6,834 bases of DNA. Source: a virus. Below the pieces are notes generated by a model. It saw only the letters and a list, made by a program, of their open reading frames with translations, did no database searches and was not told where the DNA came from. The DNA is taken from IMG/VR virus record IMGVR_UViG_3300045988_013754, positions 1 to 6,834 of that record; one strand, 5' to 3'. Of the stretch, positions 2,687 to 3,310 are shown one piece after another. The translations under genes were made by a program, and so were the position numbers. Each line of letters begins with the position of its first letter. The first letter of the stretch is position 1.

Positions 2687-3310
2687 CCTCCACTGTGACC
2701 TCGCGATACCGACTCGCGAGTCGGACACTACGTGTCCTCCCGGGAATAAACTTTTGTTCATTTGCTCGTCTAGCTCGGTCACGCCAACGCACAATGGATT
2801 CTTCGAATCCAGTGGGATGGGGGGTGTCACTTTTGCATAGTAAGGACAAGAGGGTTGAATCGATGAAGGTAACATCGATTCCCTTCGGGCAAAAGTGTAG
2901 GCTTCACTAAATCCTCCGTGCACACGGCTTCGCCAAACAACGTTTAAAGGATGACAAATCCTACGGACCGGAACAGTAAAGAAATTCTTAACGGCTTCTA
3001 AGGAAGCCTAAATTCCTTTCCTGCTCCTTTTGTCTTTTATTATCCGGCCTGTGGCCGGCGCTCCGCTTGTAGACCATTCGGTCTGTTCCGGGCGCAGCAT
3101 CGCGCCCTACACGGAACCTAACGTGACTGAACATGACGTAATGGATGTTTACGGGTCAGCTTCGCTGACGGCATGAGACGTGGTTAACACAAAGCAAAGA
3201 AAGAGCGCCGCAAGAGTAAGACACTATACTCAAGGGCGCTAGGATGTTTACCGGATTCCGAGACTCACTTCGTTCGCTCTCTCACTCGGTTAATGGTGCC
3301 TTCGGCAGTA
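2687..3310 (-). ncRNA. Large GC-rich, ORF-free, multi-hairpin element of unknown family. It is a candidate structured ncRNA and/or an ssDNA-folded site. Strand assignment is tentative.
   Basis: No ORF of 60 aa or more in any frame across 2924-3380; the three short ORFs over 2601-2923 overlap each other and coincide with hairpins.

Hand-counted G+C is 37/60 (3061-3120) and 32/60 (2701-2760). Flanks give 12/60 (3661-3720) and 23/60 (3421-3480).

At least 14 local perfect stems:
- 2701-2706/2714-2719
- 2723-2737
- 2795-2811
- 2857-2881 (9 bp)
- 2881-2889
- 2926-2934
- 2948-2962
- 2993-3008
- 3044-3058 (6 GC pairs)
- 3071-3084
- 3085-3117 (5+6 bp with a bulge)
- 3137-3153
- 3155-3169
- 3204-3240 (6+5 bp)
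- 3297-3307

A possible closing helix is 2695-2700/2777-2782. The - strand is chosen because all genes, and hence the expected transcription, are on that strand. Confidence 0.5.

What the first reader, a model, noticed from the sequence alone, without database searches (positions are those of the whole stretch)
2687..3310. ~620-nt GC-rich, ORF-free, hairpin-dense element inside a microvirus genome, possibly a large structured ncRNA of unknown class
Microviridae genomes are normally almost entirely coding with overlapping genes. Here 742 nt (2639-3380) between two small ORFs carry no credible ORF. The core switches from the AT-rich genome background to roughly 50-60% G+C by hand count.

The core is packed with perfect local stems, including:
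- a 9-bp stem at 2857-2881
- an all-GC 6-bp stem at 3044-3058
- a composite stem at 3085-3117
- a 37-nt two-tier hairpin at 3204-3240
- a closing helix at 2695-2700/2777-2782 that encloses two stacked hairpins

A GC-rich structured island in an AT-rich phage genome is the usual signature of a functional RNA. I found no cloverleaf tRNA and no convincing RNase P, tmRNA, group I or riboswitch core. The element lies downstream of its own promoter and a 91-aa ORF, on the transcribed strand.

A T=1 phage paying about 10% of its packaging capacity for non-coding sequence implies strong selection. The size is in the range of the ornate phage-associated RNAs (GOLLD/ROOL class), but I cannot claim membership.
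Basis: partly seen in the sequence, partly recalled or inferred. Interest (0 to 1): 0.85.

Follow-up and report, generated by a model that had tools for sequence, protein, structure and literature searches.

The report
Conserved folded-DNA element in gut microviruses
The non-coding, hairpin-packed stretch is real and is built around a ~270-base core conserved across Bacteroides-type gut microviruses, but its features fit a folded single-stranded DNA replication signal better than a large new RNA.

Summary
Window 2639-3380 has no ORF under any genetic code, is ~51% G+C against 38.5% elsewhere, and folds better than shuffles (z -3.3 to -5.6). It is a composite, not one ~620-nt unit. Two conserved blocks, A (2823-2902, a three-way junction) and B (3141-3311, four stem-loops), are adjacent in most relatives. 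Two lineage-specific hairpin inserts, V1 (2687-2815) and V2 (2916-3135), make up the rest. 72 loci (window included) carry both blocks; block A alone extends to relatives whose Rep is only 29% identical, including cultured Bacteroides phage phiHBP1. Covariation is strong: 17 of 19 block A pairs change on both sides, and 0/500 shuffles reach the observed values. No Rfam family matches, and nothing similar occurs in 185,000 prokaryotic genomes or in plasmids.

The well-supported stems are almost purely Watson-Crick (1 G.U in 1174 cells). Hairpin loops read C-GNA-G on the gene-sense (packaged) strand 32:0, which is the hyperstable DNA mini-hairpin signature seen at ssDNA-phage priming sites. My best reading (confidence 0.45) is a folded-ssDNA cis element, probably the complementary-strand origin. 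A structured RNA is not excluded (~0.15). GOLLD/ROOL-like membership is not supported.

The parts
2687..2815 (-). V1: lineage-specific GC-rich hairpin cluster (54% G+C). It has an outer helix 2695-2700/2777-2782 and hairpins GGACAC-GTA-GTGTCC (2723-2737) and TGGATTC-GAA-GAATCCA (2795-2811), read on the gene-sense strand.
   Evidence: Shared only with Dulem-265-like genomes and absent from the bajarodmic and other relatives. Hairpins listed. G+C.
2823..2902 (-). Block A: a conserved three-way junction. In + coordinates: P1 is 2828-2835 with 2890-2897 (CACTTTTG/CAAAAGTG). A single-stranded junction strand spans 2836-2857 and carries the conserved GGACAAG motif. P2 is 2858-2865 with 2873-2880, loop 2866-2872. 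P3 is a mini-hairpin, 2881-2883 with 2887-2889, loop 2884-2886 (gene-sense CCC-GAA-GGG).
   Evidence: Covariance model R1 scores the window copy at 98 bits. On 62 distinct sequences, 17/19 pairs change on both sides, 96.8% of cells pair, there is 1 G.U in 1174 cells, 0/500 shuffles reach the observed values, and slid controls give 28-47%. The model also finds block A in phiHBP1 and four other distant genomes.
2916..3135 (-). V2: a ~220-nt hairpin insert in the linker between blocks A and B. It includes GGC-GAA-GCC (2926-2934), TCC-GTA-GGA (2959-2967), CCGGCC/GGCCGG (3044-3058), GACC-GAAT-GGTC (3071-3082) and the composite stem 3085-3117.
   Evidence: Present in 22 loci (linker gap 227-232 nt). 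The gap is 2-21 nt in 48 loci, and other inserts of 53, 69 and 149 nt occur. It occurs with both block A subtypes. One compensatory change is seen, CCGGCC/GGCCGG to CCGACC/GGTCGG.
3141..3311 (-). Block B: four stem-loops. SL-I begins with the first GGATGTTTAC (3143-3152) and includes P5, 3155-3160 with 3164-3169 (gene-sense GTCAGC-GAA-GCTGAC). SL-II is 3204-3240. SL-III begins with the second GGATGTTTAC (3242-3251) and includes P8 3250-3253 with 3287-3290, the invariant internal loop GATTCC/TCTCACT, P9 3260-3262 with 3277-3279, and P10 3267-3273. SL-IV is 3297-3307 (gene-sense TGCC-GAA-GGCA).
   Evidence: Alignment A6 holds 61 distinct sequences. P5, P8, P9 and P10 are 100% Watson-Crick with double changes. 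The whole structure is 95.3% paired against 30-47% for slid controls, and 0/500 shuffles reach it. P4', P4, P6 and P7 are only weakly supported. Block B stays 76-92% identical in nucleotides where Rep is 43-44% identical in protein.
3680..3709 (-). Bacteroidetes-type promoter (TTTG-N18-TACCTTTG) upstream of ORF91.
   Evidence: One of only two full matches in the genome, both on the gene-sense strand. Chance expectation is 0.38.
2609..2639 (-). Bacteroidetes-type promoter (TTTG-N19-TATTTTTG) just past the element, upstream of the small ORF (ATG at 2584) and Rep.
   Evidence: It places the element upstream of the Rep transcription unit.
3381..3656 (-). ORF91, the flanking small ORF upstream of the element in gene sense. 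It has no known family.
   Evidence: Partly conserved in relatives.
3751..3780 (-). Intrinsic terminator after the pilot-protein gene (gene-sense CCTTCCGG-TTTATAG-CCGGAAGG followed by GTTTTTC). This is context, not part of the element.
   Evidence: Read directly from the sequence. A weak Rfam alignment to a terminator-bearing sRNA covers it.

Best explanation
The region is a cis-acting element that works as folded single-stranded DNA on the packaged, gene-sense strand of the microvirus genome. It is most likely the complementary-strand (minus-strand) origin.

Proposed mechanism:
1. When the circular ssDNA enters the cell it is coated by host SSB.
2. The very stable C-GNA-G-capped hairpins and the block A three-way junction stay folded and resist SSB.
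3. They present conserved single-stranded segments to the host priming machinery, which may be primase, PriA-type primosome or RNA polymerase. On the gene-sense strand these segments are the pyrimidine-rich junction strand ...CCYCTTGTCC..., the two GTAAACATCC repeats and the AGTGAGA/GGAATC internal loop.
4. Priming starts synthesis of the complementary strand and gives the double-stranded replicative form.

Block A is the widely shared core, present across very different Rep lineages, as expected for a host-dependent signal. Block B and the V1 and V2 hairpin inserts are lineage-specific accessory modules.

Shown here: conservation, structure, covariation, the strand bias of the loops, the absence of coding, and the absence from hosts.

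Inferred, not shown: that the gene-sense strand is the packaged one (a family property), that the element acts as DNA, and the priming function itself.
For: 1. Real, conserved structure:
- Block A has 17/19 pairs with changes on both sides, 147 double-change cells and 96.8% of cells paired. 0/500 shuffles reach these values and slid controls give 28-47%.
- In block B, P5, P8, P9 and P10 are 100% Watson-Crick with double changes.

2. DNA-like stems:
- There is 1 G.U in 1174 cells in block A.
- There are none in P5, P8, P9 or P10, despite many compensatory changes.

3. Strand-specific loop signature:
- 32 distinct triloop hairpins read C-GNA-G on the gene-sense strand and 0 on the complement. 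0 of 10 coding-region control hairpins are of either type.
- In the window the count is 7 against 0, with a shuffle mean of 0.15, and two copies contain the exact heptamer GCGAAGC.
- P3 is literally GCGAAGC or GCGTAGC in distant relatives.

4. Biophysics and precedent (PMC13037366):
- GNA is the only triloop that forms the hyperstable DNA mini-hairpin (Tm 70-76 C).
- The RNA version is far weaker (39 C for r(GCGAAAGC)).
- Such hairpins sit at the primase start sites of the G4, St-1 and alpha3 complementary-strand origins and in RSF1010 ssiA. They bind SSB poorly.

5. Location and orientation:
- The element always lies in the gap between the pilot-protein gene and the Rep unit, in the same orientation relative to the genes in 17/17 annotated genomes.
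- In several relatives it lies after an intrinsic terminator and before the next promoter.
- Promoters face only the gene-sense direction.

6. Independence from Rep and host:
- Block A persists where Rep identity falls to 29%, and block B is ~80% identical in nucleotides where Rep is 43-44% identical.
- It is absent from 185,000 prokaryotic genomes and from plasmids.

7. Folding and composition:
- DNA-parameter z-scores are -5.55 for the window and -4.50 for the core on the gene-sense strand, against -3.43 for the complement.
- The gene-sense strand is T-rich, the same direction of skew that I recall for phiX174's packaged strand.

8. Analogy: phiX174's ori(-) is an intergenic hairpin bound structure-specifically by PriA (bioRxiv 10.64898/2026.07.25.740675). 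Conserved intergenic hairpins in other microviruses have been proposed for the same role (PMC9865509).
Against: - No functional or strand-specific data exist.
- The weakly supported helices of block B (P4', P4, P6, P7) change mostly on one side, giving G.T when read on the + strand (about 70-100 cells) more often than A.C (14-43 cells). On the gene-sense strand those would be mismatches.
- RNA-parameter MFE favours the + strand of the core in 42/42 homologs. DNA-parameter MFE of the L136 core is -47.2 (+) against -44.6 (gene-sense).
- The GNA bias replicates only weakly (5 against 2) in the AT-rich gaps of more distant relatives.
- In the window's own clade the element follows ORF91 and its promoter with no clear terminator, so it is probably transcribed as a 3' UTR.
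- A ~270-nt core with many invariant unpaired bases, plus up to 350 nt of inserts, is larger than the G4 or phiX174 minus-strand origins, which I recall at ~140 and ~55 nt.
- There is no sequence similarity to any known single-strand origin.
Confidence: 0.45

Rival explanations
1. It is a structured RNA on the gene-sense strand. The element would be transcribed as the 3' part of the ORF91 message, or processed from it, and would act as a stability or termination element or as a trans-acting non-coding RNA of a new class.
For: - In the window a promoter (3709-3680) and ORF91 precede the element with no clear terminator between them.
- The multi-helix architecture, with a three-way junction, many invariant unpaired bases and strong covariation, resembles functional RNAs.
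- RNA-parameter z-score is -3.6.
- GNA triloops can also form in RNA.
Against: - There is almost no G.U in helices that have changed many times.
- Loops are triloops closed by C-G rather than GNRA or UNCG tetraloops. The odd-length palindromes rule out the UUCG reading.
- P3 has only 3 bp and would be marginal as RNA. The RNA mini-hairpin has a Tm of 39 C.
- In relatives lacking ORF91 the element lies after an intrinsic terminator and before the next promoter.
- In phiHBP1 block A lies upstream of the Rep promoter box.
- No Rfam family matches, even at E<=10.
Confidence: 0.15
2. It is the viral-strand (rolling-circle) origin region. Rep would nick a conserved single-stranded segment presented by the junction, for example the 21-nt strand of block A, and bind the two GTAAACATCC repeats as iterons. 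Alternatively the region combines plus- and minus-strand origins, as the Ff phage intergenic region does.
For: - HUH Rep proteins cut single-stranded DNA, and the block A junction displays a conserved ~21-nt single strand.
- Two invariant 10-nt direct repeats lie ~100 nt apart in block B.
- Rep carries the ORF2/G2P-type domain shared with filamentous-phage gpII.
- The element lies just upstream of the Rep unit.
- Purely Watson-Crick stems also fit cruciform extrusion from supercoiled replicative-form DNA.
Against: - Block A is kept across Reps that are only 29-44% identical, while the Rep-proximal block B is replaced entirely in many lineages.
- The junction motif is not invariant: GGACAAG becomes GGATAAA, GGATTAA or GGATGAA in about half the genomes. 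That is unusual for a nick site.
- Two identical nick sites in direct orientation would delete the DNA between them.
- The loop bias to GNA on one strand argues for selection on single-strand hairpin stability.
- In phiX174 the plus origin lies inside gene A.
Confidence: 0.2
3. It is an antisense non-coding RNA gene on the window's + strand.
For: - One-sided changes in P4', P4 and P6 give G.U on the + strand.
- RNA-parameter MFE favours the + strand of the core in 42/42 homologs.
- CUUCGG-like strings occur on the + strand.
Against: - No promoter of either the sigma-70 or the Bacteroidetes type lies upstream in that orientation, and there is no terminator downstream.
- Covariation fixes the hairpins as odd-length palindromes with UNC triloops rather than UUCG tetraloops, and that loop type has no known stability.
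- Well-supported helices have essentially no G.U.
- The 32:0 loop bias points to the other strand.
Confidence: 0.04
4. It is a folded or double-stranded attachment site for host XerC/XerD (dif-like), used for lysogeny as in CTX phage and proposed for Bacteroidetes microvirus prophages.
For: - Rodent relatives have dif-like sites (ATAA-N6-TTATGGTAAAT) 80-95 nt from block A.
- TTATGTTAAC occurs in SL-I on the gene-sense strand.
- Bacteroidetes microvirus prophages are flanked by dif-like sites (PMC3091885).
Against: - No dif-like site scoring 12 or more of 14 occurs in the window or in 71 of the other 72 loci with both blocks.
- Matches to the pattern in the window are at chance level.
- The TTAT part of the SL-I string varies among relatives.
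- No integrated copy of block A or B occurs in 185,000 genomes.
- phiHBP1 is lytic (PMC13064476).
Confidence: 0.03

Closest known systems
Complementary-strand origins of phages G4, St-1 and alpha3 (primase-dependent ori(-))
   Same: An intergenic cluster of hairpins on the packaged ssDNA strand. GNA/GNNA-type mini-hairpins (GCGAAAGC, GCGTTAGC) sit at the primer start, and the hairpins resist SSB (PMC13037366).
   Different: There is no sequence similarity. As I recall it, the G4 origin is three simple hairpins over ~140 nt, whereas this core is a three-way junction plus four stem-loops over ~270 nt. The host is Bacteroidota rather than enterobacteria, and the priming enzyme is unknown.
phiX174 ori(-), the primosome assembly site (PriA-bound hairpin in the F-G intergenic region)
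   Same: A structure-specific signal on the viral strand in a non-coding gap after a late gene, overlapping a terminator region. A branched DNA such as block A is the kind of substrate PriA recognises (inference).
   Different: The phiX174 site is a single hairpin, and all non-coding DNA makes up only 4% of that genome. Here the gap is 11% of the genome. No homology is detectable.
Ff (M13/f1) intergenic region
   Same: From my own knowledge: a ~500-nt non-coding region of an ssDNA phage made of several hairpins. It holds the minus-strand origin (an RNA-polymerase-recognised hairpin pair), the plus-strand origin with gpII-binding repeats, and the packaging signal. The Rep here has a G2P-type domain, and block B has two direct repeats.
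   Different: Different virus family and no sequence similarity. The functions of the individual hairpins here are untested.
Plasmid single-strand origins and initiation signals (ssoA/ssoU types, RSF1010 ssiA)
   Same: From my own knowledge: 150-300-nt orientation-dependent folded ssDNA, host-specific rather than Rep-specific. ssiA contains a CCGAAGG mini-hairpin.
   Different: There is no match in 72,556 plasmids. I did not look for the conserved plasmid sso motifs (RS-B, CS-6).
Conserved intergenic hairpins of reekeekee- and roodoodoo-microviruses
   Same: Intergenic DNA hairpins in Microviridae with compensatory substitutions, proposed as candidates for minus-strand initiation (PMC9865509).
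   Different: Those are one or two simple hairpins of 13-64 nt in very small genomes. This is a multi-domain ~270-nt core with inserts.
Large ornate phage-associated RNAs (GOLLD, ROOL)
   Same: Size of the whole gap, association with phages, and many hairpins.
   Different: No covariance-model match, even at E<=10. The conserved part is ~270 nt of mostly local hairpins, and the stems and loops have DNA-type features.

Membership tests
Known RNA families (Rfam 15: GOLLD, ROOL, OLE, raiA, HEARO, group I/II introns, RNase P, tmRNA, ribozymes, riboswitches) | Match to the family covariance model | tested here: not met
   A cmscan of the whole window, both strands, up to E=10 gave only six chance-level hits. 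None was to these families, and none in the region came near its gathering score. There are no tRNA or tmRNA genes.
Large ornate ncRNA (GOLLD/ROOL-like class) | A conserved multi-domain structure of 400 nt or more | tested here: not met
   The conserved core is ~270 nt (blocks A and B adjacent in 48 loci). The rest consists of variable inserts.
Large ornate ncRNA (GOLLD/ROOL-like class) | Expressed as a discrete RNA | not testable with these tools
   No transcriptome data were available. The promoter layout permits sense read-through in the window's clade only.
ssDNA complementary-strand origin (phage ori(-) / plasmid sso) | Lies in non-coding DNA and folds on the strand that is packaged or displaced | tested here: met
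   The element is non-coding. The C-GNA-G loop bias is 32:0 towards the gene-sense strand. That this strand is the packaged one is taken from knowledge of the family and from its T-rich composition, and was not measured.
ssDNA complementary-strand origin (phage ori(-) / plasmid sso) | Intrastrand helices maintained by compensatory change | tested here: met
ssDNA complementary-strand origin (phage ori(-) / plasmid sso) | Fixed orientation relative to the direction of rolling-circle replication | tested here: met
   The orientation relative to the genes is the same in 17/17 annotated genomes. Functional orientation dependence was not testable.
ssDNA complementary-strand origin (phage ori(-) / plasmid sso) | Independent of Rep type and dependent on the host | tested here: inconclusive
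   Block A spans Rep identities of 29-95%. All of these viruses appear to infect Bacteroidota, so host specificity could not be separated from shared ancestry.
ssDNA complementary-strand origin (phage ori(-) / plasmid sso) | RNA primer synthesis starts at the element | not testable with these tools
   This needs in vitro priming assays or primer mapping.
ssDNA complementary-strand origin (phage ori(-) / plasmid sso) | Sequence homology to a characterised origin | tested here: not met
   Searches of the phage collection with the region returned only its own microvirus lineage plus two chance-level 21-nt matches to Tenacibaculum phage pT24. Plasmids gave no match.
Rolling-circle double-strand origin (Rep nick site plus iterons) | An invariant nick motif in a single-stranded loop | tested here: inconclusive
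   A conserved 21-nt single strand exists, but its core motif varies (GGACAAG, GGATAAA, GGATTAA).
Rolling-circle double-strand origin (Rep nick site plus iterons) | Repeated Rep-binding sequences | tested here: inconclusive
   Two invariant GGATGTTTAC repeats are present. Binding was not testable.
dif-like XerC/XerD attachment site | A 28-bp site with ATAA-N6-TTATGTnAAnT arms | tested here: not met
   No site scoring 12 or more of 14 occurs in the window or in 71 of the other 72 loci with both blocks. Pattern matches in the window are at chance level.
Rho-independent terminator cluster | A GC hairpin followed by a T-run | tested here: not met
   The terminator scan found none within 2687-3312. 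The hairpins lack T-tracts on either strand.

The most novel reading that the evidence does not exclude
The ~270-nt core, or block A alone, is transcribed and acts as a new class of structured non-coding RNA carried by Bacteroides-infecting microviruses. That would make it the first ncRNA gene known in Microviridae. The evidence disfavours this reading but does not exclude it, because the element probably lies in the 3' region of the ORF91 transcript in the window's clade and no expression data were available.
Probability: 0.15. Interest if true: 0.8.

Novelty: new variant of a known kind. Interest (0 to 1): 0.55.

Why it matters
How microviruses outside the phiX174/G4 group start complementary-strand synthesis is unknown. 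These gut microviruses are among the most abundant phages of the human intestine.

This work defines a testable, sequence- and structure-specified candidate for that step:
- an ~80-nt three-way junction containing a d(GCGAAGC)-type mini-hairpin,
- conserved from lemur, rodent, dog and human gut viromes to the first cultured Bacteroides microvirus, phiHBP1,
- so genetics and biochemistry are now feasible.

It also explains why this lineage devotes 6-16% of a tiny genome to non-coding DNA. It provides a covariance model for annotating the element. It flags probable mis-annotated CDSs over the region in public records.

If the element proves to be a priming site, it would show which host priming system Bacteroidota ssDNA phages use. 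It would also extend the link between GNA mini-hairpins and priming beyond enterobacterial phages.

Tried and rejected
- **Hidden ORF or alternative genetic code:** rejected. All three stop codons occur in every frame, and insert lengths (2-232 nt) are not multiples of three.
- **Known RNA family, tRNA or tmRNA:** rejected.
- **Host-derived or contaminant sequence, or chimeric assembly:** rejected. There are no hits in prokaryotic genomes or plasmids, and the region recurs in more than 70 assemblies.
- **A 14-mer scan of viral contigs and the repeat-pair pattern:** too unspecific, and mostly chance hits.
- **The general block A pattern in viral contigs and in genomes:** gave only chance hits beyond the known set.
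- **Automatic RNAalifold on a MAFFT core alignment:** poor, because hairpins of different length were misaligned. I replaced it with hand-defined helices and a covariance model.
- **Column-based wobble counts and a generic hairpin-mismatch census:** too noisy to assign the strand (26 against 20).
- **UUCG-tetraloop reading of the + strand:** rejected. The covarying stems make odd-length palindromes with triloops.
- **dif / XerCD attachment site:** rejected for this clade.
- **Embedded plus-strand origin in the Rep gene at 1728-1804:** the conserved nucleotides simply encode the HUH motif, so this is not convincing.
- **Sigma-70 promoter and terminator scan:** uninformative for a Bacteroidetes host. 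I replaced it with the TTTG/TAnnTTTG pattern.
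Full report
**What the window is**

The 6834 bases are a complete circular microvirus genome of 6715 nt, with a 119-nt terminal repeat. All genes lie on the - strand:
- major capsid protein, wrapping the ends
- scaffold protein, 5408-4995
- pilot protein, 4995-3796
- ORF91, 3656-3381
- a small ORF starting at 2584
- Rep, 2378-777

 Rep carries an ORF2/G2P-type domain. The closest GenBank relatives are faecal microviruses from lemurs and rodents: Dulem virus 265/266 and bajarodmic viruses. A more distant relative is the cultured Bacteroides fragilis phage phiHBP1 (PMC13064476).

**Checking the observation**

- The gap 2639-3380 has no ORF. Every frame on both strands contains TAA, TAG and TGA, so stop-codon reassignment cannot create one.
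- G+C is 50.8% for 2687-3312 against 38.5% for the rest of the genome (profile).
- The region folds better than dinucleotide shuffles. As RNA, z is -3.6 (gene-sense) and -3.3 (+). As DNA, z is -5.55 for the gene-sense strand.

**Anatomy**

Alignment with relatives shows that the region is a mosaic.
- Two blocks are conserved: block A (2823-2902) and block B (3141-3311).
- In 48 loci the two blocks are separated by only 2-21 nt, so the conserved core is ~270-290 nt.
- The window and 21 other loci carry a ~227-nt insert (V2, 2916-3135) in the linker. Other loci carry inserts of 53, 69 or 149 nt.
- V1 (2687-2815) is shared only with the Dulem-265-like genomes.
- In all, 72 loci including the window carry both blocks. 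They come from IMG/VR, human-gut metagenomes and GenBank.

The blocks are at least as conserved as the coding genes. They are covered 92-100% at 66-95% nucleotide identity in relatives where the capsid and Rep genes align only in part, at 68-88%. Block B is about 80% identical in viruses whose Rep protein is 43-44% identical.

**Structure and covariation of block A**

Block A is a three-way junction:
- P1, 8 bp
- a ~21-nt purine-rich single strand (pyrimidine-rich on the gene-sense strand) carrying a conserved GGACAAG-like motif
- P2, 7-9 bp
- P3, a 3-bp hairpin with a triloop

I built a covariance model (R1) from a hand-checked seed alignment. It finds block A in every relative, including eight rodent viruses that lack block B. 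It also finds it in phiHBP1, bajarodmic viruses 953 and 1121, Dipodfec virus 446 and a dog-faeces microvirus, at E = 1e-10 to 4e-13.

On 62 distinct sequences:
- 17 of 19 pairs show changes on both sides (147 cells).
- 96.8% of cells are paired.
- None of 500 shuffles reaches any of the five measures.
- Sliding the partner columns drops pairing to 28-47%.

Examples of compensatory changes:
- P2 is AATCGATG/CATCGATT, TTTCGAT/ATCGAAA, ATTTGTT/AACAAAT, TTGCATT/AATGCAA, AAACGCC/GGCGTTT or AACCGGA/TCCGGTT.
- P1 is CACTTTTG/CAAAAGTG, GAGTTTG/CAAACTC, CAATTTTA/TAAAATTG or GACTTTCG/CGAAAGTC.
- P3 is CCC/GGG, TCC/GGA, CCT/AGG or TGC/GCA.

**Structure and covariation of block B**

Block B has four stem-loops.
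- SL-I and SL-III each begin with the invariant GGATGTTTAC (3143-3152 and 3242-3251).
- On a plain MAFFT alignment of 61 distinct sequences, P5, P8, P9 and P10 are 100% Watson-Crick with double changes: ACCG/CGGT to ACGC/GCGT, GAG/CTC to GCG/CGC, and GTCAGC/GCTGAC to GTCAAC/GTTGAC.
- The whole structure is 95.3% paired against 30-47% for slid controls.
- P4', P4, P6 and P7 vary mostly on one side and are only weakly supported.

Two caveats apply. The metagenome pattern fixed some block B positions by construction. The block A alignment was fitted to the model.

**RNA or DNA, and which strand**

Three observations point to folded DNA on the gene-sense strand.

1. The well-supported stems are almost purely Watson-Crick.
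   - There is one G.U in 1174 cells in block A.
   - There are none in P5, P8, P9 or P10, despite more than 200 double compensatory cells.
   - From general knowledge, RNA families that have changed this much normally carry several percent G.U. DNA hairpins disfavour G.T.
2. The hairpin loops are strand-asymmetric.
   - Among distinct triloop hairpins, 32 read C-GNA-G on the gene-sense strand and none on the complement. None of 10 control hairpins in the coding regions is of either type.
   - In the window the count is seven against zero, with a shuffle mean of 0.15, and two contain the exact heptamer GCGAAGC.
   - All four middle bases occur while the G and the A are kept.
   - P3 is literally GCGAAGC or GCGTAGC in distant relatives.
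   - According to the Hirao review (PMC13037366), GNA is the only one of the 64 triloops that gives the extraordinarily stable DNA mini-hairpin (Tm 70-76 C). The RNA counterpart is much weaker (39 C for r(GCGAAAGC)).
   - The + strand strings that look like UUCG tetraloops are not tetraloops. Covariation fixes odd-length palindromes with three-base loops.
3. The transcriptional layout is gene-sense only.
   - The only two full Bacteroidetes-type promoters in the genome are on the gene-sense strand. One is upstream of ORF91 (3709-3680) and one is just past the element (2639-2609).
   - In relatives without ORF91, the element follows an intrinsic terminator and precedes the next promoter.
   - In phiHBP1, block A lies upstream of the Rep promoter box.

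The gene-sense strand is T-rich (T 35.5, A 25.2, G 20.7, C 18.6%), the same direction of skew that I recall for phiX174's packaged strand. By established knowledge, Microviridae package the strand of mRNA polarity.

Contrary evidence is recorded in the notebook.
- In the weak helices, one-sided changes give G.T on the + strand more often than A.C.
- RNA-parameter MFE favours the + strand of the core in 42/42 homologs.
- DNA-parameter MFE of the L136 core is slightly lower for the + strand, although its z-score is weaker.
- The GNA bias replicates only 5 to 2 in the AT-rich gaps of the most distant relatives.

**What it most likely does**

The best-supported reading is a cis-acting folded-ssDNA element, most likely the complementary-strand origin.

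On entry the ssDNA is coated by SSB. Mini-hairpin-capped stems resist SSB and leave defined single strands for the host priming machinery. The review documents mini-hairpins at the following sites, and reports that they bind SSB poorly:
- the primase start sites of the G4, St-1 and alpha3 origins
- RSF1010 ssiA (CCGAAGG)
- N4 hairpin promoters

The phiX174 ori(-) is an intergenic hairpin bound structure-specifically by PriA. Conserved intergenic hairpins in other microviruses have been proposed for the same role (PMC9865509).

Other features fit a host-dependent signal rather than a Rep-specific one.
- The orientation relative to the genes is fixed in 17/17 annotated genomes.
- Block A persists across Rep identities of 29-95%.
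- The element is absent from 185,000 prokaryotic genomes and 72,556 plasmids.

The function itself is an inference, and I put it at 0.45.

**Rivals**

- **Plus-strand origin or Rep-binding region (0.2).** The junction presents a conserved single strand, and block B has two direct repeats. Against this, the junction motif varies among genomes, and two identical nick sites would delete the DNA between them.
- **Gene-sense structured RNA (0.15).** Transcription through the element is likely in the window's clade. However, the stems, the loops, the 3-bp P3 and the layout in relatives argue against RNA.
- **Antisense RNA (0.04).** There is no promoter or terminator in that orientation.
- **XerCD attachment site (0.03).** Dif-like sites lie near block A in some rodent viruses but are absent from the window's clade. 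No integrated copies exist, and phiHBP1 is lytic.
- **Terminator cluster.** None of the hairpins is followed by a T-run.

**Comparison with the known, and novelty**

The element works like the minus-strand origins of G4 and phiX174, the Ff intergenic region and plasmid sso/ssi elements, but shares no sequence with any of them. Its three-way-junction core has no described counterpart that I could find (literature searches). It fails the membership tests for Rfam families and for the GOLLD/ROOL class.

I file it as a new variant of a known kind. It is moderately interesting, mainly because it gives a concrete and experimentally tractable candidate for an unknown step in the life cycle of very abundant gut phages.

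Noticed in passing
window 1-119 and 6716-6834: There is an exact 119-nt terminal repeat, so the window is a complete circular genome of 6715 nt. The major capsid gene runs across the junction.
   Followed up: yes
L331 (Bacteroides phage phiHBP1, PV598014) 2326-2736: The annotated CDS CNECMEOK_00004 overlaps block A (2327-2411). The rest of it is a GC-rich hairpin region with two exact GCGAAGC heptamers on the gene-sense strand, so it is probably not a protein-coding gene. Similar doubtful annotations occur in Dulem virus 265: a 'hypothetical protein' lies over V1 (L001 1235-1588), and the ORF91 homolog is labelled 'replication initiator protein' (L001 1969-2244).
   Followed up: partly
L303 about 93 nt and L305 about 81 nt upstream of block A (+ orientation); also L002 around 1360-1390: Rodent-faeces relatives carry dif-like sites (for example TTTTGAGATAA-TCACCA-TTATGGTAAAT) next to the structured region, in either orientation. 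This suggests XerCD-type integration in those lineages. No such site is found in the window's clade.
   Followed up: partly
L333 3511-4566, L334 3560-4612, L332 3545-4123, L303 717-1593: Related microviruses have very large unannotated gaps (580 to ~1050 nt, up to 16% of the genome) at the same position. Each contains block A plus otherwise unrelated sequence, GC-rich in some and AT-rich in others.
   Followed up: partly
L149 (12,801 nt; block A at 5895 and 12655) and L289 (12,938 nt; block A at 6123 and 12757): Two contigs of about twice genome length each carry two different block A subtypes. They look like head-to-tail joins of two distinct microvirus genomes, either assembly chimeras or real heterodimers.
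   Followed up: no
L105, L256 and L285 compared with L038: The ~227-nt V2 insert occurs with both block A subtypes (P2 AATCGATG-type and AATCAGG-type). The modules of the non-coding region therefore recombine between lineages.
   Followed up: partly
window 1728-1804 (- strand, inside Rep): A 40-77-nt stretch is 87-93% identical in nucleotides across genomes whose Rep is 29-37% identical. It encodes the HUH motif (VGEYGP..FRPHFH). Synonymous conservation is limited to about 18 nt, so an embedded plus-strand origin is possible but not shown.
   Followed up: partly
window 3751-3780 (- strand): An intrinsic terminator follows directly after the pilot-protein gene (CCTTCCGG-TTTATAG-CCGGAAGG followed by GTTTTTC). 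The only Rfam alignment of note (ncr1575, E=0.36) is to this hairpin.
   Followed up: partly
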